A stretch of DNA of 64,000 bases, from assembly GCA_001821765.1 (NCBI GenBank), contig MHOA01000001.1:1580-65579 (forward strand). The letters are read 5' to 3'. This document shows, piece by piece, positions 4,007 through 60,338 of the stretch. A program made the translations under genes and the position numbers. Source of the DNA: Candidatus Ryanbacteria bacterium RIFCSPLOWO2_12_FULL_44_26 (GTDB lineage Bacteria > Patescibacteriota > Minisyncoccia > Ryanbacterales > HO2-45-13). The notes beneath the pieces are model-generated. The model was not told where the DNA came from, ran no database searches, and saw only the letters and a list, made by a program, of their open reading frames with translations. Within the stretch, counting starts at the first letter, position 1. Every line of letters starts with the position of its first letter.

Positions 4007-7003
4007 ATGTGGAAGTATACGTCGGACAAAGGACAGAGTTTGCTGGAAGTGATTGTTGCCATGGCGATTTTTTCTATGATCGCGGTAGTGATGGTTTCCA
4101 TGGCAAGTGGAAGTTTTGTTTCTCTTATAAAAAGCAGAGAACATACTGAAGCGGCGGCGTTGGCGCAAGAAGGCATGGAGGCTGTCCGTTCCATCCGGGA
4201 TGGCGCGTGGAATGAATTGGAGTTTGATCAAAGCGGCGTTTCCGCAAACAGTGGGGAGTGGGCATTTATGGGCGAGGGAAGTGCTGAAACCATCGGGCAA
4301 TATACACGCACTATAACCTTTGACGATGTTTGCCGCGATGGAGTGGGGAATGTGGAAGATCCTTGCGCTGGTTCGCCTCCGGATGTGCACAGCAAAAAAG
4401 TGACGGCGCGTGTGGATTGGACAACCGGTTCAGACATTCCCAACACGGTAAAACGCACCGCATATATTACCAACTGGGATTCTCGTGACTGGACGCAGAC
4501 CGACTGGTCGGGCGGAGCAGGGCAGGCAATTTGGTCTGATCCGAGCAGGTTTGACAGCAGTGTAAACATTGATGTCAGCACTTTTGGAGAAGTGCAATTG
4601 ACAGAGGTGGAAAGCACATGGGTAAAAGGCGGAGGAGAAGAGGCGCTTGACGACACAGATGCTGATTTCGGCGCAGGTGTTTTGAACGACACGGTTATCG
4701 TAGGTAGCGGCGTTCCGGCAAGCGTTGTGCTTGATCAGGAGCTTGCTTGGTCGGGACATGCGGACAGCGGATCGGTTACCACGCGATCACTCCATGATTT
4801 ATACGCGCTTTCCGCGACAGATATTTGGGCTGTTGGCGATGCCGGAACGGTACTGCATTACGCGGGTTCGGGATGGGTTGTTGTTTCTTCGCCCACGACA
4901 GCGGCATTACATAGTATTTTTATGATATCGCCGTCAAACGGCTGGGCGGTGGGGGATAATGGGACGATCATCCGCTGGAATGGTGTAAACTGGTCATCGG
5001 TTGTGTCTCCGGTCAGTACCCATCTCTATAGCATCTTTATGGTTTCGGCAAACGATGGCTGGGCTGTTGGGAGAACTGGAAAGATTTTGCGTTGGAACGG
5101 TGTTTCTTGGAGCGAGTCTAGAGATACCGGAAGCCATACATGGAATGCTCTCTCCATGATTTCTTCCAATAACGGATGGCTTGCGGGAACAAGCGGCAAG
5201 ATCTATCGCTATAACGGTGTGGATTGGACAGAGTTTCAGGATACCGGCAATCAAACATGGAACTCTCTCTTTATGGTTTCGTTTACTAACGGCTGGGTTA
5301 TTGGGAATGGGGGAAATATCAGGCGTTTTAACGGTATTAGATGGGTGAGCGTATCTTCTCCTGTGGGGACGAATCTCCAGAGCGTTTTTATGGTCAATGC
5401 GAATGATGGTTGGGCGGTTGGAAATGCCGGTGAAATTCTTCGGTGGGATGGCATCTCTTGGCAACGATTCCATAATGTCGGATCCATCCAATTAAATTCA
5501 GTGTTTATGGCCTCGGCGTTTGAGGGATGGACTGTTGGCGCCGGAGGTACTATATTCCGCTACAAAGGATCAGGCACCTTTCATTCAAGAATTTTTGATA
5601 GCGGTGATGCCGGCACTGTCTGGAATGCGGTTTATTGGACAGAATCCTTACCCGTCGGATCCGATATCACCATTGCGACAAGGACCGGAAATACCCCTAT
5701 ACCAGACGGAACATGGTCGGCATTTAGCGGTGAACTTACTGACAGCGTTGTTTCCGATATTACTTCTCCAAACGGGCGCTACATTCAATACAGAGCTACT
5801 TTCACGCGCGGTACTGCGGGCGGCGAAACGCCGCAGCTCGCCGATATTACCATCGTGTACAATGCTCCGACGTCAAGGAATTTAAATGATATTTATCTAA
5901 TTTCTCAAAATGATGTTTGGGCAGTTGGAGATAACGGAACAATTATCCATTATGGAGGATCTGTATGGCTTCCTGTTGTTTCTCCCACGTCCCAGAATTT
6001 GCGCGGCGTGTTTTTTGTTGATCCAGGTGAAGGATGGGCGGTTGGTGATAACGGCACCATTATTCATTATGAAAGCGGTTCGTGGTTTTCTGTTCCTTCG
6101 CCAACAGCAAGAGATTTGCACGATATATATATGGTAAACGCTAGTGATGGATGGATTGTCGGGAATGTTGGTGAAATGCTCCGATGGAACGGTTCGCAGT
6201 GGTTGTCAGTTTCATCACCGACCACGAGCCGGCTATTAAGTGTTTATATGCTTTCAGCAAGTGAAGGATGGGCAGCGGGAGAAAATGGCGGGATTCTTTT
6301 CTGGAACGGTGTAAGCTGGATTGTGTTTCAAGGTACCGGAAGCCATATATGGGAATCTCTCTACACGGTTTCTTCCAGTGACGGCTGGCTGGTCGGTTCG
6401 GGCGGATGGATCTATCGTTTTAACGGTTCGGCATGGACAGCATTTGATAACAAAATAGTTTCTCCGCTCAATGCTGTTTTTATGACAGCGGCAGATCGCG
6501 GTTGGATTGTCGGAGCTGGCGGAAATATATTTAGATGGAATGGCGCTTTATGGGAAAGCGAATTATCTTCTACAGACAGGATATTAAACGCCGTCTCAAT
6601 GTTTTCTGCTGTAGAGGGATGGGCGGTAGGGGACAGAGGAACGATACTCCATTATACAAGAAACAGCACCTACGCCCCATTTGGCGTTCTTGTCTCGTCC
6701 GCGTTCCCTCTTGGCGATCCCTCTCCTCTACAGGTGATAGAATGGGACGAATCGGTGCCATTATGTTCACCATCCTGCGGGATGCTTTTTCAGATAAGAG
6801 CAGCTCCTGATAACGCCGGTACTCCGGGATTGTGGACAGCATGGTATGGTGTGACCGGTCCCGCGACGGTTTTTATAGAAACTAATGGTTCGCTTATTCC
6901 CAAAGAACTGAATGGTAATGAGTGGGCGCAATACAGGACGATACTGATCGGTGATGGATTAAACACTCCGATACTTTATGAGGTAAGAGTACATTACAAG
7001 TAA
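4007..7003 (+). CDS. Giant pilin-like protein: prepilin-type N-terminal helix fused to two 7-bladed beta-propellers (Ycf48/BNR-like repeats)
   Basis: N-term GQSLLEVIVAMAIF pilin-like helix; 14 tandem ~42-aa repeats of the form (D/E)GWAVGxxGTIxxWNGxxW in two blocks separated by a linker. Confidence 0.6.
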   Translation: MWKYTSDKGQSLLEVIVAMAIFSMIAVVMVSMASGSFVSLIKSREHTEAAALAQEGMEAVRSIRDGAWNELEFDQSGVSANSGEWAFMGEGSAETIGQYTRTITFDDVCRDGVGNVEDPCAGSPPDVHSKKVTARVDWTTGSDIPNTVKRTAYITNWDSRDWTQTDWSGGAGQAIWSDPSRFDSSVNIDVSTFGEVQLTEVESTWVKGGGEEALDDTDADFGAGVLNDTVIVGSGVPASVVLDQELAWSGHADSGSVTTRSLHDLYALSATDIWAVGDAGTVLHYAGSGWVVVSSPTTAALHSIFMISPSNGWAVGDNGTIIRWNGVNWSSVVSPVSTHLYSIFMVSANDGWAVGRTGKILRWNGVSWSESRDTGSHTWNALSMISSNNGWLAGTSGKIYRYNGVDWTEFQDTGNQTWNSLFMVSFTNGWVIGNGGNIRRFNGIRWVSVSSPVGTNLQSVFMVNANDGWAVGNAGEILRWDGISWQRFHNVGSIQLNSVFMASAFEGWTVGAGGTIFRYKGSGTFHSRIFDSGDAGTVWNAVYWTESLPVGSDITIATRTGNTPIPDGTWSAFSGELTDSVVSDITSPNGRYIQYRATFTRGTAGGETPQLADITIVYNAPTSRNLNDIYLISQNDVWAVGDNGTIIHYGGSVWLPVVSPTSQNLRGVFFVDPGEGWAVGDNGTIIHYESGSWFSVPSPTARDLHDIYMVNASDGWIVGNVGEMLRWNGSQWLSVSSPTTSRLLSVYMLSASEGWAAGENGGILFWNGVSWIVFQGTGSHIWESLYTVSSSDGWLVGSGGWIYRFNGSAWTAFDNKIVSPLNAVFMTAADRGWIVGAGGNIFRWNGALWESELSSTDRILNAVSMFSAVEGWAVGDRGTILHYTRNSTYAPFGVLVSSAFPLGDPSPLQVIEWDESVPLCSPSCGMLFQIRAAPDNAGTPGLWTAWYGVTGPATVFIETNGSLIPKELNGNEWAQYRTILIGDGLNTPILYEVRVHYK

Positions 7004-50741: not shown

Positions 50742-53441
50742 ATGTTACCCTTTTCGAATTTTACAATAAAAGCGCAGGAAGCTCTTAAAAAAGCTCATGA
50801 GCTTGCTGTTGAGCGCGGGCAGGGATCGCTGGATGCCATGTATCTGCTTGCAGCTCTTTTACTGCAGGAAGAAGGTGTTATTATTTCACTGGTAGAGAAG
50901 CTCGGGATTGATTATCAATCATTTGCGGACTACGTCCTTGATGCGCTTGATGCGAGGAAGAGTCAACAACTCCTCACGCCCCCGTCGCAGTTTTATATCA
51001 CTCCGGAACTAGCCCGTGTGCTGGAAGAAGCGCATAGAGCCGCTATTTCCTTAAAAGATGAATATATTTCAACGGAACATCTGTTTCTCGCGTTTCTTGA
51101 GACTCCCTCAAAGGCGCGTGACATTCTTGATCGGTTTCATATTGATAAAGAGTCGGTTTTGCAGGTTCTTGCAAGTATCCGGGGCGCTCAGCGTGTAACC
51201 GACGTTGAGCCGGAAAGCAAATATCAGGTTCTTGAAAAATATGCCAGAAATCTGACGCGTCTTGCGCGCGAAGATAAACTTGACCCTGTTATTGGCAGAG
51301 ATACGGAAATTCGCCGTGTCATGCAGGTGCTTTCGCGACGGACAAAAAACAACCCCGTTCTTATAGGAGAAGCAGGGGTCGGGAAAACAGCCATTGTGGA
51401 AGGGCTTGCCCAGCGCGTTGTGTCAGGAAGCGTTCCGGAGAGTCTTCGCGATCATGAGCTTGTTGCTCTGGATCTTGGTGCGCTTGTTGCGGGCACGAAG
51501 TATCGCGGAGAATTTGAAGAACGATTGAAAGCTGTTCTTAGAGAAATTCATCGTGAAGGCAGCAGGATATTATTGTTTATTGACGAGCTGCACACGCTGG
51601 TAGGCGCAGGGTCGGCGGAAGGCGCTATGGACGCTTCTAACATGCTCAAACCCGCGCTTGGAAGGGGAGAACTTCATGCGATCGGCGCCACGACGATAAA
51701 AGAATATCAAAGACACATTGAAAAAGATCCTGCTCTTGCGCGCCGCTTTCAGCCCGTATATGTGGATGAGCCCTCTCCTGAAGATACCGTTGCTATCCTT
51801 TTGGGGTTGAAAGAAAAATACGAGGTGTTTCATGGAATTAAGATAACCAATGAAGCCATTCAAAAAGCGGTGGAGTTGTCTCGGAGATATATTACTGACA
51901 GATTTCTTCCGGATAAAGCCATTGATCTTATTGATGAAGCCGCATCAGCGCTTCGGCTTGAGATTGACAGTGTACCGCGTGATTTGGATGATGTTCGCCA
52001 AGAAATCATGAAATTGGAGATTGAACGGGAGGCGATGAAGCGCGATGAGGGAAGCAAAAACAGCCGCCGGCTGCGTGTTATTGTGCGGCAGCTTGCTGAA
52101 CTGCATGAGAAAAACAAATCCATTGAACTAAAGTGGAAAAACGAGAAAGACACAATTGTCCACATTAGAGAACTCAAGAAAGATTTCGAGAAGTTGCGGA
52201 TGGAGTCTGAAAGTGCGGAGCGCGCTTCAGATTTTACGAAAGTGGCGGAGATTCGTTATTCACGAATGCCGGAGCTTTCAAAACAGCTCAGAGAAGGAGA
52301 GAAACGCCTCAGAAGATTACAAGCATACAGAAAGATTTTAAAAGAGGAAATTGGAGAGGAGGAAATTGCCGAGGTTGTTTCCCGATGGACGGGCGTACCG
52401 GTAAAACGCATGCTTGAAGAAGAAGCAAAAAAACTGCTTAAAATGGAGGACGCGCTTAAGAAACGTATTGTAGGGCAGGATGAAGCTATAAAAGAAATTT
52501 CACATGCGGTAAGGCGGAGCCGCGCCGGCATTAATGAAGAGGATCATCCGATCGGTTCTTTTATATTTCTTGGAGCAAGTGGTGTGGGGAAAACTGAACT
52601 GGGCCGCGCGCTTGCCGAATTTATGTTTAATGATGGAAAAGCGCTTATCCGAGTTGATATGTCCGAGTACATGGAACGGCATACGGTTTCAAAGTTTATC
52701 GGTTCTCCTCCGGGTTATGTCGGGCATGAAGAGGGAGGTCAGTTAACAGAACTTATTCGTCATAGGCCCTATGCTGTTGTGCTTTTTGACGAGATTGAAA
52801 AAGCACACCCGGAAGTGTTTAACATTATGCTTCAAATTCTGGATAACGGCCGCTTAACGGACGCAAAAGGAAGACATGTCAACTTTAAAAATACCATCAT
52901 TATCATGACTTCTAATATTGGCTCCGAGCTTGTAAGAGAAGCCGGATCTATCGGGTTTGATTTGTCTACTGGGGAGAAGGAAGCGAGGCAGTTAAAATCA
53001 AAAGAAGAGGAACTGAAGTCAAAGATTCACAAGCAGCTTGAATCGCATTTCAGGCCGGAGTTCTTAAATCGCCTTGATTCGATAATCATATTTAACAACC
53101 TTTCCAAGGAACATATTCTTGCAATTGTTGATATTCAGCTTGCGCATGTACAGAAACGCCTTGACCAAAAAGAAATAATGTTGGTTGTTGAAAAGAATGT
53201 AAAAGAATTTTTGGCTCGCGAGGGATATAACCCTCAATATGGTGCAAGGCCGCTGAAAAGATTTATTCAAAACAAAATTCTCAATCCTCTTGCCGAAAAA
53301 ATGGTTTCAAAGGAAATACAGGAGGGAGACAGGGTACGCCTGACTGTTAAAGATGAGAGTATTGTATTTGAATATACGCATCGCGTAAGCACTGATAAGA
53401 AGAAAGGAAAGCGAAAAACCGCAACCTCTACCATAAGGTAA
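50742..53441 (+). CDS. clpB: Chaperone ClpB (two AAA+ modules with coiled-coil M-domain)
   Basis: Clp_N repeats, [15 protein letters not shown], long middle domain, second Walker [12 protein letters not shown]. Confidence 0.9.
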
Positions 53442-53503
53442 ATACATAAGGTATAATACACTCTATAGTTTGCTTTGCGTTAGTTCGCATTTATAGCATA
53501 CAT

Positions 53504-53532
53504 GCGTCGGTGGCGGAGTGGACAATCGCACC
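53504..53532 (+). repeat. 29-nt exact copy of the 5' end of the downstream tRNA-Tyr gene (acceptor 5' strand + D-arm)
   Basis: Identical to 53797-53825; immediately followed by hairpin CCCCGC-TATAA-GCGGGG. Confidence 0.7.
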
Positions 53533-53558
53533 CCGCTATAAGCGGGGCGGCCTTATAT

Positions 53559-53834
53559 ATGTGGTATGTTTATATTCTTAAGAGTAAAAAGGATAATAAA
53601 TATTATATTGGATGTACATCAGATTTAGATAAACGTCTTGTTCGTCATAATAAAGGAGGCAATAAATCTACTAAAAACAGGAAACCGCTTGAGCTTATTC
53701 ACCGTGAGTTATATGATGATAAACATCAAGCTCTAGCCAGAGAACGAAAGATAAAAAGTTATAAGGGTGGTGATGAGTTTAAGAGGTTAATATCAGGCGT
53801 CGGTGGCGGAGTGGACAATCGCACCAGACTGTAA
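53559..53834 (+). CDS. Small GIY-YIG nuclease-domain protein (COG2827/YhbQ-like); stop codon lies in the tRNA-Tyr anticodon loop
   Basis: WYVYIL...YYIGCT...R..H...ERKIKSYKG GIY-YIG motifs; ORF runs into tRNA-Tyr. Confidence 0.6.
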   Translation: MWYVYILKSKKDNKYYIGCTSDLDKRLVRHNKGGNKSTKNRKPLELIHRELYDDKHQALARERKIKSYKGGDEFKRLISGVGGGVDNRTRL

Positions 53835-53883
53835 ATCTGGCGGCCTCAGGCCTACGCAGGTTCGAATCCTGCCCGGCGCACCA
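53797..53883 (+). tRNA. tRNA-Tyr (anticodon GUA), long variable arm, CCA encoded
   Basis: GCGTCGG/CCGGCGC acceptor, CCAGA-CTGTAAA-TCTGG anticodon arm, GCAGG-TTCGAAT-CCTGC T-arm. Confidence 0.85.
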
Positions 53884-53922
53884 AGACACAACTCAATTCA
53901 GTTTCAGAGATTTTTTAATCAT

Positions 53923-54429
53923 ATGAATCCAGAAAAACCAAATTTCAATCCAGAACCTCCAAAAGAGGAAAATAAAGAAATCAAGGGTGATGGTTTTGTA
54001 ATGGGCGGTAAGGATAGAAAACCGTCTCGGTTTTCTAGTTTTTCCCATGATACTTCCGTAGAATTTCGACCAGGCGAAACCAACGAAGGAAAGATAAAAG
54101 CGAAAGAAGAAGCAATGAAAAAAGAAATTGAGCGCACTAAAAATTTCACTGACGCTGACTATGCCGAAGATTTGTTGAGTGGTATGCTCGAGACGAATAA
54201 TCCTTATTCGGAAACCTTTAAAATTAAACCTGATGGAAAATTTGATAAAATTTTGAGAGCAGATGGCGCTCCTGTTTATTTGGTGGCATATGGTGATACA
54301 CCGGCTGAACTTTACAAAATTGCAGCAGAGATAGAGAAGAAGCATCCGGAGTATTATTTTGCTTTCGAAACCGATCCGCAAGGACAGTGGATGAAATATA
54401 CGGTTTCGAAATCCGAAACTGAAAAATAA
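53923..54429 (+). CDS. Hypothetical protein (168 aa, Lys/Glu-rich)
   Basis: Internal Met after tRNA; no domain recognised. Confidence 0.4.
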   Translation: MNPEKPNFNPEPPKEENKEIKGDGFVMGGKDRKPSRFSSFSHDTSVEFRPGETNEGKIKAKEEAMKKEIERTKNFTDADYAEDLLSGMLETNNPYSETFKIKPDGKFDKILRADGAPVYLVAYGDTPAELYKIAAEIEKKHPEYYFAFETDPQGQWMKYTVSKSETEK

Positions 54430-54434
54430 ATTTG

Positions 54435-54616
54435 TATAATTTCATAATTAAATTGCCGCCAAAGAAAAACTTGTCCTTCGGCAGTGCTCAGGACAATCCT
54501 GAGTTTATCGAAGGATTGAAATTGTCGCCTCGTTTTGCGAGGCGAAAACCGCCAAAGAGCCCCGAGAAAAACATCGGCGCGAACCATATTTTAATTTTGG
54601 GGGAAGAAAATTTTTT
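54435..54616 (+). promoter_or_regulatory. Extended -10 promoter (TGTATAAT) plus ~150-nt structured leader, copy A of a duplicated element
   Basis: Shares ATAATTAAATTGCCGCC...AAAGAAAAACTTGT..TTCGGCAG...ATCCTGAGTTTATCGAAGGA..AATTGTC with 55580-55682. Confidence 0.5.
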
Positions 54617-55138
54617 ATGAATCCTACGCATACGCTTGATGAATTTTTAGACCTTGTTGATGAAAACGATAACGTCGTTGGTAAAAAAAAGCGGTCAGAA
54701 GTTTACGCAGAAAATCTTTCAAATTTCCGGGTAGTGAACGCTTTTGTTGTAAACTCTAAAGGAGAAGTTTGGATACCGAGGCGAGTCGCGAACAAGCGGA
54801 TATTTCCTTTGTGTTTGGATATGAGTATGGGCGGCCACGTTGAAAGCGGCGAGACATACGAGCAAACGCTGAAACGCGAGACACAGGAGGAATTGAATAT
54901 TGATACCGATAAAGCAGAAGTGCGTTTACTCGGCCATTTAACCCCGCAGAAAGACGGCGTTTCAGCGTATATGAACGTTTACGAGATAAAGATGGATGAA
55001 ACACCAAATTACAACAAAAGCGATTTTGTCGAGTATTTTTGGCTGACGCCAAAAGCACTTTTTGAACGAATTGCCAACGGCGAAAAGACAAAAGGTGATT
55101 TACCAAAACTTGTAAAGATTTTTTATGGAGACAAGTAG
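54617..55138 (+). CDS. NUDIX hydrolase
   Basis: Nudix box GGHVESGETYEQTLKRETQEELNI. Confidence 0.75.
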   Translation: MNPTHTLDEFLDLVDENDNVVGKKKRSEVYAENLSNFRVVNAFVVNSKGEVWIPRRVANKRIFPLCLDMSMGGHVESGETYEQTLKRETQEELNIDTDKAEVRLLGHLTPQKDGVSAYMNVYEIKMDETPNYNKSDFVEYFWLTPKALFERIANGEKTKGDLPKLVKIFYGDK

Positions 55139-55574
55139 TCAACCAACAAAAAGAGCATATGCGATTTACCATGTCGGTTTGAAAGTTCTTCTCAAAAAAG
55201 GAGATGAGTTTTTGTTTTTGACGGACGCCGTTGGCAAACATTTTGATTTGCCTGGAGGCCGCATAGACGATGTAGAGCATACTACTCCGCTTACCGAAGT
55301 TATCGCGCGAGAAGTCGGAGAAGAACTTGGCGAAGAAGTAAAATACAAGCTCGGCAAACCAGTTTTTCAATTTCGCCGACATTTTGAAAGTAAAGGGTTG
55401 CATATTTTTCTCACAGTTTACGAAGCAGAATATTTGTCCGGCGAAATCAAACTGTCTGCCGAGCATAGCGACCTCCAATGGGTAGATCCGAAAAAAGTTG
55501 ATTTGAAGGATGAACAATTTTTTCATAAGGAAGAATATCTTGCTTTCAAAAAGTATTTTGAAAATTTGGTTTGA
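55125..55574 (+). CDS. NUDIX hydrolase (second, tandem)
   Basis: Nudix box GGRIDDVEHTTPLTEVIAREVGEELG. Confidence 0.7.
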   Translation: METSSQPTKRAYAIYHVGLKVLLKKGDEFLFLTDAVGKHFDLPGGRIDDVEHTTPLTEVIAREVGEELGEEVKYKLGKPVFQFRRHFESKGLHIFLTVYEAEYLSGEIKLSAEHSDLQWVDPKKVDLKDEQFFHKEEYLAFKKYFENLV

Positions 55575-55579
55575 TTGCA

Positions 55580-55682
55580 TATAATTAAATGCCGCCACTT
55601 CGATAAACTCAGTGCAAGCAAAGAAAAACTTGTGGTTCGGCAGACTTACCATCCTGAGTTTATCGGAGGAAAATTGTCAGCG
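55580..55682 (+). promoter_or_regulatory. Copy B of duplicated TATAAT + structured leader element
   Basis: Same conserved blocks as copy A with a 23-nt insertion and compensatory stem changes (GTCCT/AGGAC vs GTGGT/ACCAT). Confidence 0.5.
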
Positions 55683-56127
55683 GTGCTGCTCCCCGCCTGC
55701 GCCGAGGCTTGGTTCGGCTTTACTCACCATAAGTCGCTCAGTGCAGGCCGCCGCATTTCTGAATTTTCGCGGGGGGATTTCCTCGCCCTTCGATTGACTC
55801 AGGGCGAAATGCCGAAGGTACTGAGGAACGAAGTATGTTCGGATTTTGTCAAACAAGCGCATATCAAAATGAATACCCAGATTTTTACTGGATATTCATT
55901 TTGATAAGTTTTCAGAAGGAAAGCCGTTTTCTACTCAAGTCCTCTTCGGCGGGGTAAAGAAGGCGGCCTCATAACAAACCGCGAGCTTTGTTATGGGATT
56001 TGCCGTATAAAAAGGTTTTTTTAACCTATGTTTAGGCACAATCTGCCATAGTCCTTTTTGAAAAGTTTTAGTATGCTAATAATAGCGTCGTTATCTATTT
56101 TTTATGGAACGTAGACAATAAAATAAA

Positions 56128-57258
56128 ATGTTTAGGGAAAAGAAAGGTAAGGGCAAGACGAAAATTAAAAAACTGTCAAAGCAGAAAAAACGGCCCCCAA
56201 AAAGAGCTCCCAAGAGCATTAAAAGAAAGACAGAAAAGAAAAAACAACCTGGCACGCCGGCTCTTGTAAGAGCAGTAGAAAATCCGATTATTCTGCCAAA
56301 ACCCGAACATCACTGGGAGGCATGGCAGACGTTTAACCCCGGAGTTATCTTGCTTGAAGATAAAATACATTTTCTCTATCGAGCAATCGGGGAAGACGGT
56401 ATCTCGCGTTTCGGATATGCTGTTTCCAGTGATGGATTTGCGATTGATGAGCGATTACCAAACCCAGTTTTCGAGCACCGCTTCACAAAGCCGGTGTTTA
56501 ATTTTTATTCTTTTGTTTCAGGAGGAAGTTTCGGGGGGAGCGAAGATCCGCGCATTGTTCAGGTAAACGGAGAAGATACATTATATATGACTTATACTGC
56601 TTGCGATGAAGGATTGAGAATGGCCTTGTCATCAATAAAAGTTAAGGACTTTTTACGGAAAAAGTGGACATGGGAATTGCCGGTTTTGATCTCGCCGCCC
56701 GGAGAACTTCATAAAAACTGGGTTATTTTCCCGGAAAAAATAAATGGGAAGTATGCTGTCTTGCACAGCATCAGCCCTGAAATATCCATCGCTTATCGCG
56801 ACAGTTTGGAATTTCAAGAAGGCGAATACATTTACAGTTTTTATAACGGCAATAATAGCCAAAGAAAAAATTGCTGGGATAGTTGGGTGCGGGGCGTTGG
56901 GGCGCCGCCGATTAAAACAAATAAAGGCTGGCTGTTGTTTTATCATGCCATCGATGAAAGCGACCCCGGCAAGTACAAGGTTGGCGCCATGCTTCTGGAT
57001 ATACATAATCCGGCTAAAATACTTTGCCGCTCTCAAGAACCAGTTCTGGAGCCGGAAAAAGATTATGAAAGCAACGGTTTTAAAGCGGGTGTTATATATG
57101 TATCCGGAGCGGCGGTGAAAAACGGAGAACTTTTGGTGTATTATGGCGCTTCGGATAGCTATATCAGTGTGGCCCACGCACCAGTAGAGGAATTTTTGAA
57201 CAGATTAATAAGTCAGGCCAAACCGAAACTCAAGGCAAAAACTCTAAAGGGAACATAA
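56128..57258 (+). CDS. GH130/DUF377-like beta-propeller glycosidase/phosphorylase-family protein with highly basic N-terminal tail
   Basis: ...EDPRIV...YMTYTA... pattern; N-terminal 45 aa K/R-rich. Confidence 0.5.
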   Translation: MFREKKGKGKTKIKKLSKQKKRPPKRAPKSIKRKTEKKKQPGTPALVRAVENPIILPKPEHHWEAWQTFNPGVILLEDKIHFLYRAIGEDGISRFGYAVSSDGFAIDERLPNPVFEHRFTKPVFNFYSFVSGGSFGGSEDPRIVQVNGEDTLYMTYTACDEGLRMALSSIKVKDFLRKKWTWELPVLISPPGELHKNWVIFPEKINGKYAVLHSISPEISIAYRDSLEFQEGEYIYSFYNGNNSQRKNCWDSWVRGVGAPPIKTNKGWLLFYHAIDESDPGKYKVGAMLLDIHNPAKILCRSQEPVLEPEKDYESNGFKAGVIYVSGAAVKNGELLVYYGASDSYISVAHAPVEEFLNRLISQAKPKLKAKTLKGT

Positions 57259-57259
57259 G

Positions 57260-59182
57260 ATGATTATTGAGCGCTTTAAGAAAAATCCGATACTCACGCC
57301 GGATAAAAATCAGTCTTGGGAAGCTGAGGCTGTTTTTAATGGTTGTCCTGTTCGGAAAGGAAATAATGTTTTTCTCCTTTATCGTGCCGTTTCTCTGATC
57401 CATTATCACACGTTGGCAAAAGCAAAACTCATGGTGTCTGATATCGGTATTGCCGAAAGCAAAGACGGGCTCAATTTTTATGACCGAAAACGGTTTATTT
57501 TTCCAGAGCACGAGTGGGAAAGGTTCGGTTGTGAAGATCCGCGAATAACAAAACTGGACAACAAATACTATATCTTTTATACCGCGCTTTCAAGCTGGCC
57601 TCCCCGAACGGAGCATATAAAAGTAGGACTTGCCATAAGCAAAGATTTAAAAACGATTGAAAAAAAACATCTTATAACCCCCTTCAACGCTAAAGCAATG
57701 GCTCTTTTTCCGGAAAAAATCAATGGCAAAATCTGGGCGGTTTTGACGGTGCACACTGATCGGCCGCCGGCAAAAATATGCCTTGTTTCTTTTCAAAGAG
57801 AAGAAGATATCTGGAATGAATCATATTGGAATAAATGGTATCAAAATTTTGATAAGTATTCTTTGCCGCTTCAACGCCGGCCGCAGGACCATATCGAAGT
57901 CGGCTCTCCGCCGATAAAAACAAAACATGGCTGGCTTTTATTTTATTCCTATATTTGGGATTATATTTCTCCCCGAAGGTCTTTTAGTATTGAAAGTGTA
58001 CTGCTGGATTTAAAAAATCCTTTTAAGATTATCGGAAAAACCGATTTCCCACTTCTTTCTCCTGAAGATTATTATGAAAAACACGGTATAGTGCCGAATG
58101 TCGTTTTTCCTTCCGGAGCGTTACTGAATAAAAATACGATCTCATTATATTATGGAGCCGCAGATACTACCTGTGCGGTTGCTTTTATTGATCTCCCCTC
58201 GCTTATTGATAAGTTTATAAAAAAACAAATCGTTCTGATAAAGCTTCGTCGAGCCAACATAAATCCAATCATCACGCCAAACAAAAATCATCCTTGGGAA
58301 GCAAAAGCGACATTCAACCCGGCGGCCATGTATCTTAAAGGAAAAGTTCACCTGCTTTATCGGGCAATGTCGGAAGATAACACTTCAGTGCTTGGTTATG
58401 CGACAAGTCGGGACGGCATTCACATAGATTATCGTTCTCCGGAGCCGGTTTATATTCCTCGGGAACAATTTGAACAAAAGCTTGAAAGGGGAGGAAATTC
58501 AGGCACGGAAGATCCGAGACTCGTAAAAATTGGGAGCAGAATTTATATGTTCTATACCGCCTTTGATGGGAAAAATCCGCCGCGAGTGGCTTTCACTTGG
58601 ATTAAAGAGCAGGATTTTTTAAACAAGAAGTGGGATTGGTCGCGTGCCATGCTTATCTCCGCTCCTGATTTGGATGATAAAGATGCAGCTATGTTTCCGG
58701 AAAAAATAAAAGGGCGGTACCTTATTATTCATCGCGTCGGCGACGATATTGATTTCTCTCATCATAAAACACTGGATTTTAACGGGACGAATTGGCTTGA
58801 AGAGTATCGCTGGATAATGCCGAGGAAAGGACGGTGGGATTCGAGAAAGGTTGGTGTTGCCGCTCCGCCGATAAAAACAAAGGCAGGCTGGCTTCTGCTC
58901 TATCACGGAATTTCAGAAGAAGACCAGTTTTATCGCGTAGGAGCGATATTAGTTGGTTTGCGTGATCCTGCAAAAATTATCTGTCGCACGGATTATCCGA
59001 TTTTTGAACCGGAAACTTCTTATGAAAAAGAAGGAGAGGTTTCAAATGTGGTATTTCCTTGTGGGGCGGCACTTATTGGCAAAAAACTTTTCGTATATTA
59101 CGGAGGAGCGGATAAAGTGGTTGGAGTGGCTACGGTGAATATTGATGAGCTTCTCGGTGTGCTTAAGGTATGTAAATGTTAG
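57260..59182 (+). CDS. Tandem double GH130/DUF377-like domain protein
   Basis: Two repeats of the same fold (EDPRIT..., EDPRLV...), 640 aa. Confidence 0.5.
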   Translation: MIIERFKKNPILTPDKNQSWEAEAVFNGCPVRKGNNVFLLYRAVSLIHYHTLAKAKLMVSDIGIAESKDGLNFYDRKRFIFPEHEWERFGCEDPRITKLDNKYYIFYTALSSWPPRTEHIKVGLAISKDLKTIEKKHLITPFNAKAMALFPEKINGKIWAVLTVHTDRPPAKICLVSFQREEDIWNESYWNKWYQNFDKYSLPLQRRPQDHIEVGSPPIKTKHGWLLFYSYIWDYISPRRSFSIESVLLDLKNPFKIIGKTDFPLLSPEDYYEKHGIVPNVVFPSGALLNKNTISLYYGAADTTCAVAFIDLPSLIDKFIKKQIVLIKLRRANINPIITPNKNHPWEAKATFNPAAMYLKGKVHLLYRAMSEDNTSVLGYATSRDGIHIDYRSPEPVYIPREQFEQKLERGGNSGTEDPRLVKIGSRIYMFYTAFDGKNPPRVAFTWIKEQDFLNKKWDWSRAMLISAPDLDDKDAAMFPEKIKGRYLIIHRVGDDIDFSHHKTLDFNGTNWLEEYRWIMPRKGRWDSRKVGVAAPPIKTKAGWLLLYHGISEEDQFYRVGAILVGLRDPAKIICRTDYPIFEPETSYEKEGEVSNVVFPCGAALIGKKLFVYYGGADKVVGVATVNIDELLGVLKVCKC

Positions 59183-59392
59183 CAGGCCTTAAAAAAGCAA
59201 TTGGAAAGTAAGTGGCGCGTAGAAACAAAAAGACCCGATTTGTTTCGACGGATCGATTCTTTTATTTTCACCTGTCAAAATATTTGACAAGCAAGATTAC
59301 TTGATATATACTTGAAGCAGATCATCTAGAATGAGAATACGGTATTCTCATTCTATTGCGCAATAAAACCGGGAACTTTAAGGAGTCCAAAG

Positions 59393-59698
59393 ATGGATGT
59401 ATGTACATATGGAAATGCAACTCGGGAAGGGACGTTGCTCTGTATCTTTCATACCTTGAACCTGAAGTTCTATCATGTGAAGATGAATTGGAACGGCGCT
59501 CCTTTTCAAGATAGCGTGTCTGTGTGCGGTCGCTTCTCCAATCTTGCGGAGTGCGATGGGAGTTGCACTGAATATGCCCGGCGCGAGTTTACGCTCGACG
59601 AAGCGGATGCGGAGGAACTCAAGAGAATGCTCGAGGATTACGAAGAAGATAAGCTTGACGCGCAGCTTCTCGCAACTGAGATTAAGGATGAGTTTTAG
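59393..59698 (+). CDS. Hypothetical acidic protein (101 aa), locally GC-rich
   Basis: AAGGAG RBS 7 nt upstream of ATG; followed by GCCCAA..TTGGGC hairpin. Confidence 0.45.
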   Translation: MDVCTYGNATREGTLLCIFHTLNLKFYHVKMNWNGAPFQDSVSVCGRFSNLAECDGSCTEYARREFTLDEADAEELKRMLEDYEEDKLDAQLLATEIKDEF

Positions 59699-59868
59699 TA
59701 CATTGTTAAAGTGGGGCCGAAATAGGCGGCTCAACAGGAAAAGTCTCCGATATTGGTTTGATCCCATATGGGAGATTTTGTCTTAAGCCCAAGTCTGATT
59801 TGGGCTTCTGCCAAAGCATTCAATACTCATTGAGCATTTTGGTAGAACTGGCATATTGAAACAAACAC

Positions 59869-59897
59869 TTGCAATCTTGCACGTATTGTGCTATGCT
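59869..59897 (+). promoter_or_regulatory. Sigma70-like promoter TTGCAA-17-TATGCT
   Basis: Read from sequence. Confidence 0.45.
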
Positions 59898-59903
59898 CAA
59901 CCT

Positions 59904-60171
59904 TGTCCGATGCTGGGAAGCTTACCGAGCCGGCAAAACTCAGCGCTTGAGGACAACAGATGCGCTCGGACCCTAGGGAAAATGGCGTTTCCCGGCCACT
60001 CTCGGGTAATGACAGGGATAGGTTCCGCAAGGAAAGCTGGCCCGAACGGAACCGAAAAGAAGAACAGCGGCCAATACACATGACCCCAGTGTGTAGGCGT
60101 CAAAAAAGCCGTGAAGGTATGGGGCCGCCCCCTCCGAACGCTAATGCTAGTAGGAGGGGGTTTTTCTTTTT
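59904..60171 (+). ncRNA. Candidate small RNA (~267 nt) from promoter to intrinsic terminator; contains an SRP-RNA domain-IV-like GNRA hairpin (possible long-form ffs)
   Basis: No plausible ORF; AGGUUCC-GCAA-GGAAAGCUGGCC at 60021-60043 resembles the SRP RNA AGGUCC-GGAA-GGAAGCAGCC; terminator CCCCCTCC...GGAGGGGG+T run at 60128-60171. Confidence 0.4.
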
Positions 60172-60262
60172 AATAAAGAGTTAAAAATTGTCGTTGGATG
60201 AAAAATTTGTTACTATGCTTATAGTTTTTTAGCGGGAGTAGTTCAGTTGCACCGCCACATTT

Positions 60263-60338
60263 GCCCAAGTAGCTCAGCTGGTAGAGCAACTCCATGGTAA
60301 GGAGTAGGTCAGCGGTTCAAGTCCGCTCTTGGGCTCCA
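60263..60338 (+). tRNA. tRNA-Thr (anticodon GGU), CCA encoded
   Basis: GCCCAAG/CTTGGGC acceptor, ACTCC-ATGGTAA-GGAGT anticodon arm, AGCGG-TTCAAGT-CCGCT T-arm. Confidence 0.85.

What the first reader, a model, noticed from the sequence alone, without database searches (positions are those of the whole stretch)
53504..53883. 29-nt direct repeat of the tRNA-Tyr 5' end flanking a GIY-YIG nuclease ORF
The first 29 nt of tRNA-Tyr (acceptor 5' strand plus D-arm, GCGTCGGTGGCGGAGTGGACAATCGCACC) occur twice, at 53504-53532 and again as the true 5' end of the intact tRNA-Tyr at 53797.

The 264 nt between the copies hold a perfect hairpin (CCCCGC-TATAA-GCGGGG) and a 92-aa GIY-YIG domain ORF. The ORF reads into the tRNA and stops at the TAA in its anticodon loop.

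This layout is what site-specific insertion of a minimal ~290-bp element into the 5' part of a tRNA gene would leave, with the target core duplicated at both junctions. If so, it would be a GIY-YIG-only mobile cassette using a tRNA 5' end as its att site.

A similar 5' tRNA-like fragment (GCGGGAGTAGTTCAGTTGCACCGCC, 60232-60256) sits just upstream of tRNA-Thr(GGU), so this may be a recurring pattern.
Basis: partly seen in the sequence, partly recalled or inferred. Interest (0 to 1): 0.75.

Follow-up and report, generated by a model that had tools for sequence, protein, structure and literature searches.

The report
tRNA-nested GIY-YIG nuclease cassette
A tiny nuclease gene sits inside the tRNA-Tyr gene region between a crippled, hairpin-bearing spare copy of the tRNA's front half and a complete working tRNA, and the same layout recurs next to tRNA genes in hundreds of other bacterial genomes, apparently without having been described.

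Summary
The 29-nt repeat is part of a 53-nt repeat. The upstream copy (53504-53553) is tRNA-Tyr positions 1-50, with all 8 differences in the anticodon arm, which is rebuilt as the hairpin CCCCGC-TATAA-GCGGGG. A 91-aa GIY-YIG ORF (53559-53834) starts 5 nt later and stops at the TAA in the anticodon loop of the intact tRNA-Tyr (53797-83).

Three independent assemblies carry the same layout. The closest relative found has ClpB followed directly by an intact tRNA-Tyr, with no ORF and no fragment (an empty site).

The pattern is general. In 76 of 80 loci from other species, a homologous ~80-aa Slx1/UPF0213-like nuclease gene abuts a same-strand tRNA (Tyr, Ser, Pro, Gln, Glu, Lys, Gly, Asp). A second copy of that tRNA has arms replaced or interrupted by CCCGCC-N-GGCGGG hairpins, which are 30-fold enriched locally. 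Bacteroidota carry tandem arrays.

The ORFs are under strong purifying selection. The pseudo-copies track their own tRNA.

Best reading: a long-lived selfish nuclease cassette nested in tRNA transcription units, created and maintained by homologous recombination rather than by att-site integration or a fixed target-site duplication. The hairpin's role and the mode of spread are inferred, not shown. I found no description of it in the literature.

The parts
53470..53497 (+). Promoter-like hexamers upstream of the pseudo-copy: TTGCTT, 16-nt spacer, TATAGC, ending 6 nt before 53504. A perfect TATAAT also lies at 53452-53457. This is a weak inference.
   Evidence: Read directly. It falls below the consensus scanner's threshold. 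The empty-site relative L081 has TTGATA and an AT-rich -10-like stretch at the equivalent place before its intact tRNA-Tyr.
53504..53553 (+). Pseudo-tRNA-Tyr: a 5' copy covering tRNA positions 1-50. The acceptor 5' strand and D arm are identical to the live tRNA, the anticodon arm is replaced by the hairpin, and the first 6 nt of the variable arm are identical. It occupies the position of the original tRNA start.
   Evidence: 42 of 50 positions identical, all mismatches in the anticodon arm. Position relative to ClpB compared with the empty site in L081.
53531..53547 (+). Signature GC hairpin (H), CCCCGC-TATAA-GCGGGG. It replaces the 17-nt anticodon arm with 17 nt, and the loop still resembles the anticodon loop (CTATAAG against CTGTAAA).
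   Evidence: It is the only such hairpin in the 64-kb window. The same motif is present within 170 nt of the ORF in 70 of 80 related loci, at 1.23 per kb near the ORF against 0.041 per kb elsewhere.
53559..53834 (+). A 91-aa stand-alone GIY-YIG nuclease ORF. The domain is residues 1-78. The last 13 residues are a translation of the tRNA 5' end, and the stop codon is the TAA of the anticodon loop.
   Evidence: Pfam PF01541, E 8e-18. The catalytic residues Tyr5, Tyr16, Arg26, His30 and Glu62 are invariant in homologues. AlphaFold2 mean pLDDT is 92.5. The nearest folds are UPF0213 protein BH0048, the Slx1 nuclease domain and the I-TevI catalytic domain. dN/dS between homologue pairs is 0.06-0.17. 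GC content is 31.5%, in the lowest 0.6% of equal-sized windows.
53797..53883 (+). Intact tRNA-Tyr(GTA) with an encoded CCA end. Its first 38 nt overlap the end of the ORF.
   Evidence: ARAGORN; Rfam RF00005, 59.9 bits.

Best explanation
This is a selfish nuclease cassette nested in a tRNA transcription unit. It belongs to a large, apparently undescribed family.

Shown:
- An ~80-aa single-domain GIY-YIG nuclease gene of the Slx1/UPF0213 type lies between two copies of tRNA-Tyr sequence.
- The upstream copy sits where the original tRNA started in an uninterrupted relative. It keeps positions 1-50 and has its anticodon arm converted into the family's GC hairpin.
- The ORF begins 5 nt later and runs into a complete tRNA-Tyr.
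- Homologues in other phyla have the same three parts: ORF, live tRNA and hairpin-modified pseudo-tRNA.

Inferred:
1. The cassette entered, and is maintained, by homologous recombination or gene conversion, using the tRNA sequence itself as a portable homology arm, probably stimulated by nicks or breaks made by the nuclease. One crossover, or one repair event, yields tRNA copy / ORF / tRNA copy. That explains why the 'duplication' varies in length and keeps matching the resident tRNA.
2. The ORF has no room for its own control region and is read from the tRNA promoter as part of the tRNA precursor. RNase P then releases the tRNA. Because the stop codon lies inside the tRNA, processed transcripts lack a stop codon, which would keep nuclease levels low.
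3. The hairpin disables the spare tRNA copy and breaks up the direct repeat. Because its stem sequence is conserved across phyla, it is probably also bound by the nuclease, as a single-stranded DNA or RNA stem-loop.

I consider the hairpin's role and the route of spread between genomes the least secure steps.
For: - Anatomy of the window.
- Empty orthologous site in L081.
- A second lineage (L144, same species as L018) has the same ClpB / tRNA-Tyr site occupied. Its hairpin is in a different position and the copy ends at a different point. Its ClpB is only 60% identical to the window's, against 76% for the empty L081.
- Recurrence: 514 confirmed relatives in one-genome-per-species contigs. Of the 80 fetched, 76 have a same-strand tRNA abutting the ORF.
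- The upstream copy always starts at tRNA position 1, and the ATG follows its end within about 10 nt in most candidate phyla radiation (CPR)-type loci.
- Hairpins sit at the acceptor/D junction, D arm, anticodon arm and T arm of the pseudo-copies.
- Bacteroidota carry tandem arrays of ORF plus pseudo-tRNA units, with identical units within an array.
- 14 of 80 contigs end within 200 nt of the ORF.
- The ORF is AT-rich relative to the host in 72 of 80 loci.
- The catalytic residues are intact, and the fold is that of a structure-specific nuclease with no DNA-binding domain.
- Nuclease lineages track the tRNA type, with rare switches.
- Pseudo-copies track their own tRNA in 37 of 37 loci.
- No integrase, no group I intron and no other Rfam family is present in the region.
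Against: - I found no direct sign of recent movement. Identical proteins P0010 and P0018 (22 and at least 24 contigs) always lie in one genomic context.
- The family is absent from the plasmid collection. Phage and viral collections hold only remote relatives (36-43% identity), and the one context checked is not next to a tRNA.
- The closest ORF pairs are already near or beyond saturation at synonymous sites, with dN/dS of 0.06-0.17. That fits a long-resident gene with a selected function as well as, or better than, a purely parasitic one.
- An 80-aa domain has no obvious means of recognising a tRNA gene.
- In loci where hairpins lie at tRNA positions 7-16, a single crossover 5' of the hairpin is implausible, so hairpins must also be gained after insertion by an unknown process.
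- The window hairpin sequence on its own is common among ordinary terminators.
- Transcription from the tRNA promoter is not demonstrated. Weak promoter-like matches also exist inside the ORF.
Confidence: 0.5

Rival explanations
1. A stable two-part module in which the hairpin acts as RNA. The hairpin-bearing pseudo-tRNA would be a structured RNA, carried in a tRNA-like scaffold on the same transcript, that binds and restrains or regulates the nuclease. This is comparable to a type III toxin-antitoxin pair or an autoregulatory operator. The module would persist by addiction or by a host benefit such as processing branched DNA at heavily transcribed tRNA genes, rather than by moving.
For: - Strong purifying selection and long residence.
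- One fixed context per population.
- The hairpin stem sequence is conserved from the candidate phyla radiation (CPR) to Bacteroidota, while the loop varies.
- The hairpin always lies on the ORF's transcript side: 5' in CPR-type loci, 3' in Bacteroidota.
- Hairpins replace tRNA arms at equal length, which preserves a cloverleaf outline.
- One hairpin variant has a conserved bulged A, so it is asymmetric.
- Just outside the GC core there are 73 G-T wobble pairs against 13 A-C on the sense strand.
- There are arrays of hairpin units upstream of an ORF cluster (L041).
- The fold is that of a stem-loop/branch-specific nuclease.
Against: - This does not by itself explain the tRNA duplications, the tandem ORF arrays, the empty site or the contig breaks.
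- CPR-type pseudo-copies lack the 3' half, so they are not complete scaffolds.
- The wobble-pair count is inflated by shared ancestry.
- No RNA data are available.
- GIY-YIG domains are not known RNA binders; this rests on my own knowledge and was not tested.
Confidence: 0.22
2. A nucleic-acid-guided minimal nuclease. The pseudo-tRNA would act as a guide, with the hairpin as the protein handle and the tRNA-identical segments as the targeting sequence, directing the nuclease to cognate tRNA genes for homing.
For: - The non-hairpin segments of the pseudo-copy are kept identical to the live tRNA of the same genome despite old ORF divergence.
- The hairpin sequence is conserved.
- The protein has no DNA-binding domain of its own.
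Against: - Identity is equally well explained by gene conversion between adjacent repeats.
- The only perfect target in the same genome is the essential tRNA next door, which would be self-destructive.
- The 'guide' varies widely in length and composition, from as little as about 15 nt up to a whole tRNA.
- I know of no precedent for a guided GIY-YIG enzyme.
Confidence: 0.07
3. One reading: a classical site-specific insertion of a ~290-bp element into an att site at the tRNA 5' end, leaving a duplicated target core at both junctions.
For: - A direct repeat flanks the ORF.
- An empty site exists in a relative.
Against: - No integrase or transposase is present; the 264 nt between the repeats are filled by the nuclease ORF.
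- The repeat length is not fixed across the family.
- The repeats are not identical, because of the hairpin substitution.
- In Bacteroidota the whole tRNA is repeated in arrays.
- GIY-YIG enzymes cut DNA but do not rejoin it (established knowledge of the family).
Confidence: 0.05
4. A chance leftover of a local tandem duplication of tRNA-Tyr that happens to enclose an unrelated small ORF, or an assembly artefact.
For: Tandem tRNA duplications are common. The hairpin sequence alone resembles ordinary terminators.
Against: - The same architecture is recovered in three independent assemblies.
- The same three-part layout appears in 76 of 80 homologous loci across phyla.
- The hairpin is 30-fold enriched locally.
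Confidence: 0.01

Closest known systems
Free-standing GIY-YIG homing endonucleases of phage T4, especially SegB in the T4 tRNA gene cluster (PMC2330249, seen)
   Same: Both are GIY-YIG nuclease genes lodged among tRNA genes. Both are selfish in logic, with inheritance promoted by DNA breaks and recombinational repair that co-converts the flanking tRNA sequence.
   Different: SegB and its relatives are two-domain proteins of about 200 aa or more with a C-terminal DNA-binding module, and they live in phages. They do not create hairpin-modified pseudo-tRNAs. The window protein is the catalytic domain alone (78 aa), is chromosomal, and has only remote phage relatives that are not next to a tRNA in the one context checked.
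UPF0213 / YhbQ-type stand-alone GIY-YIG proteins (BH0048, PDB 1zg2; EF2693, PDB 1ywl) and the Slx1 nuclease domain
   Same: They have the same size and fold. phmmer gives E 5.5e-8 and 2e-5 for the two UPF0213 proteins. Foldseek gives query-normalised TM-scores of 0.66-0.70 and rmsd of 1.7-3.5 A to Slx1. The catalytic residues are conserved.
   Different: To my knowledge (not tested here), the characterised members are housekeeping or structural-genomics proteins that are not linked to tRNA genes, pseudo-tRNAs or hairpins. Slx1 additionally needs a RING domain and its partner Slx4.
Mobile endonuclease ORFs in fungal mitochondria that leave partial gene duplications, and mobile GC clusters / double-hairpin elements of mitochondrial DNA (for example PMC4478555, seen; the Allomyces cases are from memory)
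   Same: A small endonuclease ORF is inserted into an essential gene, with a regenerated functional copy and a leftover fragment. Short GC-rich palindromic hairpins are scattered in an AT-richer background and associated with such ORFs.
   Different: The setting is organellar and the targets are protein or rRNA genes. The hairpins are dispersed across the genome. Here they occur only inside pseudo-tRNA copies next to the ORF: one in the 64-kb window.
tRNA-targeting integrative elements (phages and genomic islands with tyrosine integrases)
   Same: The target is a tRNA gene. The element restores a functional tRNA and leaves a partial tRNA repeat at its other end.
   Different: Those elements use the tRNA 3' end, a fixed att core and an integrase, and they are kilobases long. 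Here the repeat covers the 5' end, has variable length, involves no recombinase, and the cassette is about 290 bp.
Group I introns in tRNA genes of Patescibacteria (PMC13011429, seen)
   Same: The host phylum is the same. Both are selfish insertions in tRNA genes of reduced genomes.
   Different: No intron is present here. An uninterrupted tRNA follows the ORF, and Rfam finds no intron model in the region. The search listing showed no occurrence of 'GIY-YIG' in that paper.

Membership tests
GIY-YIG nuclease superfamily (Pfam PF01541) | GIY-YIG catalytic domain with the conserved Tyr, Tyr, Arg, His and Glu residues | tested here: met
   PF01541 at E 8e-18, 64.9 bits against a cut-off of 22.6. 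Tyr5, Tyr16, Arg26, His30 and Glu62 are invariant in 19 homologues. AlphaFold2 mean pLDDT 92.5, with the expected strand-strand-helix-strand-helix-helix order.
GIY-YIG homing endonucleases (I-TevI / Seg type) | A C-terminal DNA-binding module joined to the catalytic domain by a linker | tested here: not met
   The ORF is 78 aa of domain plus 13 aa of translated tRNA. There is no other non-overlapping Pfam domain, and the homologues are 79-90 aa.
GIY-YIG homing endonucleases (I-TevI / Seg type) | Cleaves the allele that lacks the endonuclease gene near the insertion point, which drives copying of the gene | not testable with these tools
   Only indirect evidence is available: an empty site in relative L081, and nuclease lineages that are specific to a tRNA type.
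UPF0213 / YhbQ / Slx1-like stand-alone GIY-YIG | A single-domain protein of about 80-100 aa with sequence and fold similarity to BH0048, EF2693 and the Slx1 nuclease domain | tested here: met
   phmmer E 5.5e-8 (1zg2) and 2e-5 (1ywl). In Foldseek, 1zg2 ranks first and Slx1 entries have query-normalised TM-scores of 0.66-0.70.
Integrase-mediated tRNA-att integrative elements | A tyrosine or serine recombinase gene inside the element | tested here: not met
   Only the GIY-YIG ORF lies between the repeats. The neighbouring genes are ClpB, a 168-aa protein of unknown function and NUDIX genes.
Integrase-mediated tRNA-att integrative elements | An identical att core of fixed position, usually at the tRNA 3' end, at both junctions | tested here: not met
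   The repeat covers the tRNA 5' end, is 83% identical over 53 nt, and its end point varies from about position 15 to 77 across the family.
Group I intron in a tRNA gene | A tRNA interrupted by a self-splicing intron RNA structure | tested here: not met
   A contiguous tRNA is present. A permissive Rfam scan of 53400-53950 finds only the tRNA and two chance-level hits.
Hairpin-dependent single-strand transposons and repeats (IS200/IS605; REP elements with their RAYT transposases) | A HUH/Y1 transposase together with subterminal hairpins at both ends | tested here: not met
   The only protein is GIY-YIG. Hairpins lie on one side of the ORF, inside a tRNA copy. The resemblance is to the logic only.

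The most novel reading that the evidence does not exclude
The hairpin-bearing pseudo-tRNA may be an obligate nucleic-acid partner of the 80-aa nuclease rather than debris. The conserved CCCGCC/GGCGGG stem-loop would be the protein's handle. The tRNA-like body would act either as a stabilising scaffold for an RNA that restrains the enzyme (an antitoxin-like role) or as a guide that points it at cognate tRNA genes. Either way, this would be one of the smallest protein-plus-structured-nucleic-acid nuclease systems known, and it would be widespread in the candidate phyla radiation (CPR) and Bacteroidota.
Probability: 0.15. Interest if true: 0.9.

Novelty: new variant of a known kind. Interest (0 to 1): 0.75.

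Why it matters
- It would establish a large, overlooked class of gene-sized selfish elements. A profile search finds about 8,300 protein clusters (50% identity) at E <= 1e-10, and 514 hits among species-representative genomes. These elements live inside tRNA transcription units of bacteria with very small genomes (CPR) and of Bacteroidota.
- It explains three annotation and assembly nuisances: tRNA fragments and 'odd' tRNAs (pseudo-tRNAs whose D or T arm is a GC hairpin are still called as tRNA-Pro by ARAGORN), N-terminally over-extended GIY-YIG gene calls, and contig breaks at tRNA loci.
- It offers a natural test case for how a nuclease with no DNA-binding domain finds a target.
- It shows how essential single-copy tRNA genes can tolerate an insertion.
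- The conserved hairpin plus an 80-aa nuclease is a compact system that would be simple to reconstitute.

Tried and rejected
- **Metagenome scan with the window's 27-nt tRNA 5' sequence:** no hit, so I found no same-species empty or occupied pairs that way.
- **Metagenome scan with the window hairpin sequence:** 36 hits, nearly all ordinary A/T-flanked terminators. The hairpin sequence alone is therefore not diagnostic, and this search added little.
- **Viral contigs, phage and plasmid collections:** only remote relatives or none. The one phage context checked is not next to a tRNA, so a phage or plasmid vehicle is not supported.
- **Identical-protein look-ups for signs of recent jumps:** one genomic context per protein, so no evidence of recent movement.
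- **Consensus promoter and terminator scan:** inconclusive.
- **RNA folding of the leader alone:** not more stable than shuffled sequence (z = -0.48). The whole co-transcript can pair the pseudo 5' strand with the real tRNA's 3' strand. That is an expected consequence of the duplication and is not evidence of function.
- **Group I intron, integrase and transposase readings:** rejected.
- **The tRNA-Thr upstream fragment (60232-60256):** no source tRNA could be identified and it has no relation to the adjacent tRNA-Thr. Left unassigned.
- **First alignment for locus retrieval:** too divergent for the tool, so it was replaced with a 6-sequence alignment.
- **Literature searches:** none of the six returned a description of this arrangement. 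I also read the tRNA passages of one GIY-YIG superfamily paper.
Full report

Yes. The 29-mer GCGTCGGTGGCGGAGTGGACAATCGCACC occurs exactly twice in the window, at 53504-53532 and 53797-53825. A short-word blastn of the tRNA against the whole window finds only these two copies (E 1.7e-11). The second copy is the 5' end of tRNA-Tyr(GTA), 53797-53883 (ARAGORN; Rfam tRNA 59.9 bits).

The repeat finder shows that the repeat is really 53 nt long: 53501-53553 against 53794-53846, 83% identical. All eight differences lie in the anticodon arm. The live tRNA has CCAGA-CTGTAAA-TCTGG. The upstream copy has CCCCG-CTATAAG-CGGGG. Both stem strands changed in a compensatory way while the loop stayed nearly the same. 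After the arm, the first six bases of the variable arm (CGGCCT) match again.

The ORF starts at ATG 53559, five bases after that copy. It encodes 91 aa, matches Pfam GIY-YIG at E 8e-18, and ends at the TAA of the anticodon loop (53832-53834).

Three independent ENA assemblies of the same organism carry the same sequence over about 530 nt. L097 and L098 are identical. L099 differs only by a 22-nt deletion within the T arm. The duplication is therefore not an assembly artefact.

**2. What organism and what neighbourhood?**

The window has 43% GC. The upstream gene is ClpB (50742-53441). Its closest homologues are from Patescibacteria / candidate phyla radiation (CPR), of the Paceibacteria type, with a maximum of 76% identity.

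Between the repeats there is room only for the nuclease ORF. No recombinase is present. A permissive Rfam scan of 53400-53950 finds only the tRNA, so this is not an intron.

**3. Is there an empty site?**

Yes. The closest relative available is L081 (GCA_042568045.1). Its ClpB is 76% identical to the window's, and it has the same NifU / ferredoxin / NifU / HtrA / ClpB order upstream. It has an uninterrupted tRNA-Tyr 55 nt after the ClpB stop codon. There is no GIY-YIG gene, no fragment and no hairpin.

In the window the pseudo-copy begins 62 nt after the ClpB stop codon. That is where the original tRNA began.

Three further relatives (L082-L084) also lack the ORF.

A more distant lineage, L144 (the same species as L018; ClpB only 60% identical to the window's), has the same ClpB / tRNA-Tyr site occupied by a 57%-identical nuclease. 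There the hairpin lies in the D loop and the copy ends at position 35. The presence/absence pattern therefore needs either two gains or a loss.

**4. The pattern is general**

A scan of one genome per species (GTDB) found 514 confirmed relatives. I fetched 80 loci.

- In 76 of the 80, the ORF abuts a same-strand tRNA gene. The other four lie at contig starts.
- In Patescibacteria-type loci the live tRNA is immediately downstream. The types are Tyr-GTA, Ser-GGA/TGA/GCT, Gln, Glu, Lys, Gly and Pro. The ORF stop codon lies from 37 nt inside the tRNA to about 22 nt before it. It is often a tRNA-internal triplet: the TAA of the Tyr anticodon loop, a TAG in the Ser D arm, or U8-A9-G10 of Pro.
- Upstream lies a copy of the same tRNA. 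It always starts at position 1 and ends at a variable position (about 15-66), and the ATG follows within about 10 nt in most loci.
- In Bacteroidota and several other phyla the order is mirrored. A normal tRNA (mostly Pro) comes first. It is followed by one to several units, each made of a spacer with a terminator-like hairpin, the ORF, and a full-length pseudo-tRNA.

**5. The hairpin is the family's signature**

The pseudo-copies carry GC hairpins of the form CCCGCC, 2-5 variable bases, GGCGGG.

- The hairpins are inserted at the acceptor/D junction, in the D loop or in the anticodon loop. Alternatively they replace a whole arm at equal length.
- Equal-length replacements include the anticodon arm in the window, L001, L002 and L136; the D arm in Bacteroidota; and both the D and T arms in L041.
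- Of 91 mapped hairpins, 51 lie in the D arm, 18 in the anticodon arm, 14 in the variable/T region and 8 at the acceptor/D junction.
- The motif is present within 170 nt of the ORF in 70 of 80 loci. Its density is 1.23 per kb within 600 nt of an ORF and 0.041 per kb elsewhere, a 30-fold difference.
- The window has exactly one such hairpin in 64 kb.
- The stem sequence is nearly invariant across phyla, and the centre varies. The innermost pair changes in a compensatory way: C-G 63 times, T-A 7 times, A-T 7 times.
- A frequent variant has a bulged A (CCACCGCC / GGCGGGG). That makes it asymmetric and favours a folded single strand over a double-stranded palindrome.
- Just outside the GC core, sense-strand G-T wobble pairs outnumber A-C pairs 73 to 13. 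This hints at pairing in the sense strand, possibly as RNA, but the loci are not independent.

One caution applies. The window's hairpin sequence by itself is common among ordinary terminators in metagenomes. The context is diagnostic, not the sequence.

**6. The protein**

- The core is a single GIY-YIG domain. Tyr5, Tyr16, Arg26, His30 and Glu62 are invariant.
- The AlphaFold2 model is confident (mean pLDDT 92.5).
- The closest solved relatives by sequence are the UPF0213 proteins BH0048 and EF2693.
- The closest by fold are BH0048, the Slx1 nuclease domain (query-normalised TM-score 0.66-0.70) and the I-TevI catalytic domain.
- There is no DNA-binding module.
- NCBIfam and PADLOC give nothing specific.
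- ORF pairs from different species have dN/dS of 0.06-0.17, with synonymous sites near or beyond saturation. The protein has therefore been kept functional for a long time.
- The ORF is AT-rich: 31.5% GC, the lowest 0.6% of equal-sized windows here. It is below the locus GC in 72 of 80 loci, although it correlates with host GC (r = 0.74).
- A profile search finds 8,326 clusters (50% identity) at E <= 1e-10. Many gene calls have N-terminal extensions that are translated pseudo-tRNA or hairpin leader.

**7. Dynamics**

- Nuclease lineages follow tRNA type and broad taxon. There is a Bacteroidota-Pro cluster of 26 loci, a CPR-Tyr cluster of 13, and two CPR Ser-GGA clusters. The window groups with L001, L002 and L020, all at Tyr.
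- Switches are occasional: a Ser-GCT locus sits inside the Tyr cluster, and there are single Lys, Gln and CPR-Pro cases.
- The non-hairpin parts of each pseudo-copy match the live tRNA of their own genome better than the same tRNA elsewhere: 94-96% against 79-82%, in 37 of 37 loci. This comparison is biased in favour of the own tRNA, because the alignment was made against it.
- Given the old ORF divergence, this means concerted evolution (gene conversion) or constraint, not passive decay.
- Arrays with identical units (L054, L041, L026, L016) show local recombinational amplification, as do 14 of 80 contigs that end at the element.
- Against recent long-range movement: identical proteins are always found in one context, and the family is absent from plasmids. 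Phages and viral contigs hold only remote relatives, and the one context checked is not next to a tRNA.

**8. How it most likely works**

Shown: the three-part anatomy, the empty site, the recurrence, the conserved active nuclease, and the hairpin enrichment.

Inferred:

(a) The cassette arises and persists by homologous recombination or gene conversion, with tRNA sequence as the homology. A single exchange between a tRNA-bearing cassette and a resident tRNA gives copy / ORF / copy. Which copy ends up carrying the hairpin depends on where the exchange falls relative to it. That accounts for the CPR and Bacteroidota orientations and for the variable repeat length. It does not explain hairpins at positions 7-16, which must be acquired afterwards.

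(b) The ORF is expressed from the tRNA promoter. Promoter-like hexamers lie at 53470-53497 and a TATAAT at 53452-53457, in the same place as in L081 (the scanner was inconclusive). RNase P processing at 53797 would strip the stop codon from the message and so limit expression.

(c) The hairpin inactivates the redundant copy and interrupts the direct repeat. Because its sequence is conserved, it is probably also a binding or cleavage structure for this Slx1-like, structure-specific nuclease.

I put about 0.5 on this overall picture. I put about 0.2 on a mainly RNA-level regulator or antitoxin role for the hairpin within a stable module. The guide model and the att-site model get much less.

**9. 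Comparison with what is known**

The logic is closest to free-standing GIY-YIG homing endonucleases such as T4 SegB in the phage tRNA cluster (PMC2330249). It also resembles mitochondrial endonuclease ORFs that leave partial gene duplicates and travel with GC hairpins (PMC4478555; the Allomyces cases are from memory).

Membership of the homing-endonuclease family fails on the DNA-binding domain. Membership of the UPF0213/Slx1-like stand-alone group is met.

It is not an integrase-type tRNA island, not a tRNA group I intron (PMC13011429 concerns those), and not an IS200-type or REP/RAYT-type element.

None of the six literature searches returned a description of a GIY-YIG / pseudo-tRNA / hairpin arrangement, and a GIY-YIG superfamily paper I checked does not mention it. 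That library is incomplete, so prior description cannot be excluded.

**10. Verdict**

The att-site / target-duplication mechanism and the tRNA-Thr 'second case' are not supported.

I rate this a new variant of a known kind: a free-standing selfish GIY-YIG gene with an unexpected, conserved, hairpin-modified pseudo-tRNA partner. It is of high interest because it is widespread, compact and directly testable.

Noticed in passing
window 60232-60256: GCGGGAGTAGTTCAGTTGCACCGCC resembles a tRNA acceptor strand plus D arm. It is preceded by TATAGT 8 nt upstream and ends 6 nt before tRNA-Thr(GGT). Only 13 of 18 positions match that tRNA. No source tRNA was found and there is no ORF. CACCGCC equals the 5' arm of one hairpin variant, but the 3' arm is missing. 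It may be a decayed relic of a tRNA or of an old cassette.
   Followed up: partly
window 59183-60230: About 1 kb with no convincing ORF (only overlapping 101-129-aa ORFs on both strands). GC rises to 0.59 at 59900-60050, and the stretch ends in a strong terminator near 60125-60170. Rfam gives only a sub-threshold RAGATH-9 hit (18.9 bits against a gathering score of 75.2). This may be an unannotated structured RNA.
   Followed up: partly
L099:566-1080 (ENA ERZ28563808), equivalent to window 53855-53876: One of the three independent assemblies of the same locus has a 22-nt deletion between two CGCA repeats. The deletion removes the T arm of tRNA-Tyr. It is either a population variant or an assembly error.
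   Followed up: no
window 53883-60263, compared with L081:5232-5408: In the empty-site relative, tRNA-Tyr and tRNA-Thr(GGT) are 18 nt apart and are followed by L33 and tRNA-Trp. In the window they are 6.4 kb apart, with NUDIX, HTH and other genes between them. The tRNA cluster has been split by a second, larger rearrangement.
   Followed up: no
L041:2430-2890: Seven tandem 66-nt units lie directly upstream of a normal tRNA-Pro. Each unit consists of the tRNA 5' flank, tRNA-Pro positions 1-11, a hairpin and 6 nt. Downstream are three identical units of ORF plus pseudo-tRNA. This is an ORF-less array of hairpin-bearing tRNA starts.
   Followed up: partly
L054:2878-2954, L016:52-128, L026:2146-2222 and others: ARAGORN calls pseudo-tRNA-Pro copies as ordinary tRNA genes even though their D arm is replaced by CCCCGCC-NNN-GGCGGGG. 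Such pseudo-tRNAs are probably counted as real tRNAs in genome annotations.
   Followed up: partly
L084:5302-6084: In another ClpB relative, a LAGLIDADG endonuclease ORF is called at 5302-6084 on the minus strand, overlapping the start of the minus-strand tRNA-Tyr (5228-5311). About 110 nt upstream of that relative's tRNA-Thr there is a tRNA-like start (GTAGCTCAGTCGG) followed by long hairpins. These tRNA loci seem to attract several kinds of endonuclease genes.
   Followed up: no
L108, L112, L115 (metagenome contigs): A more distant GIY-YIG ORF (41% identity) lies on the strand opposite to the matched hairpin, next to what appears to be a tRNA 3' end on that same (opposite) strand, with a CCCCGCTATAAGCGGGG hairpin between them. 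The habit may therefore extend to a wider GIY-YIG clade.
   Followed up: no
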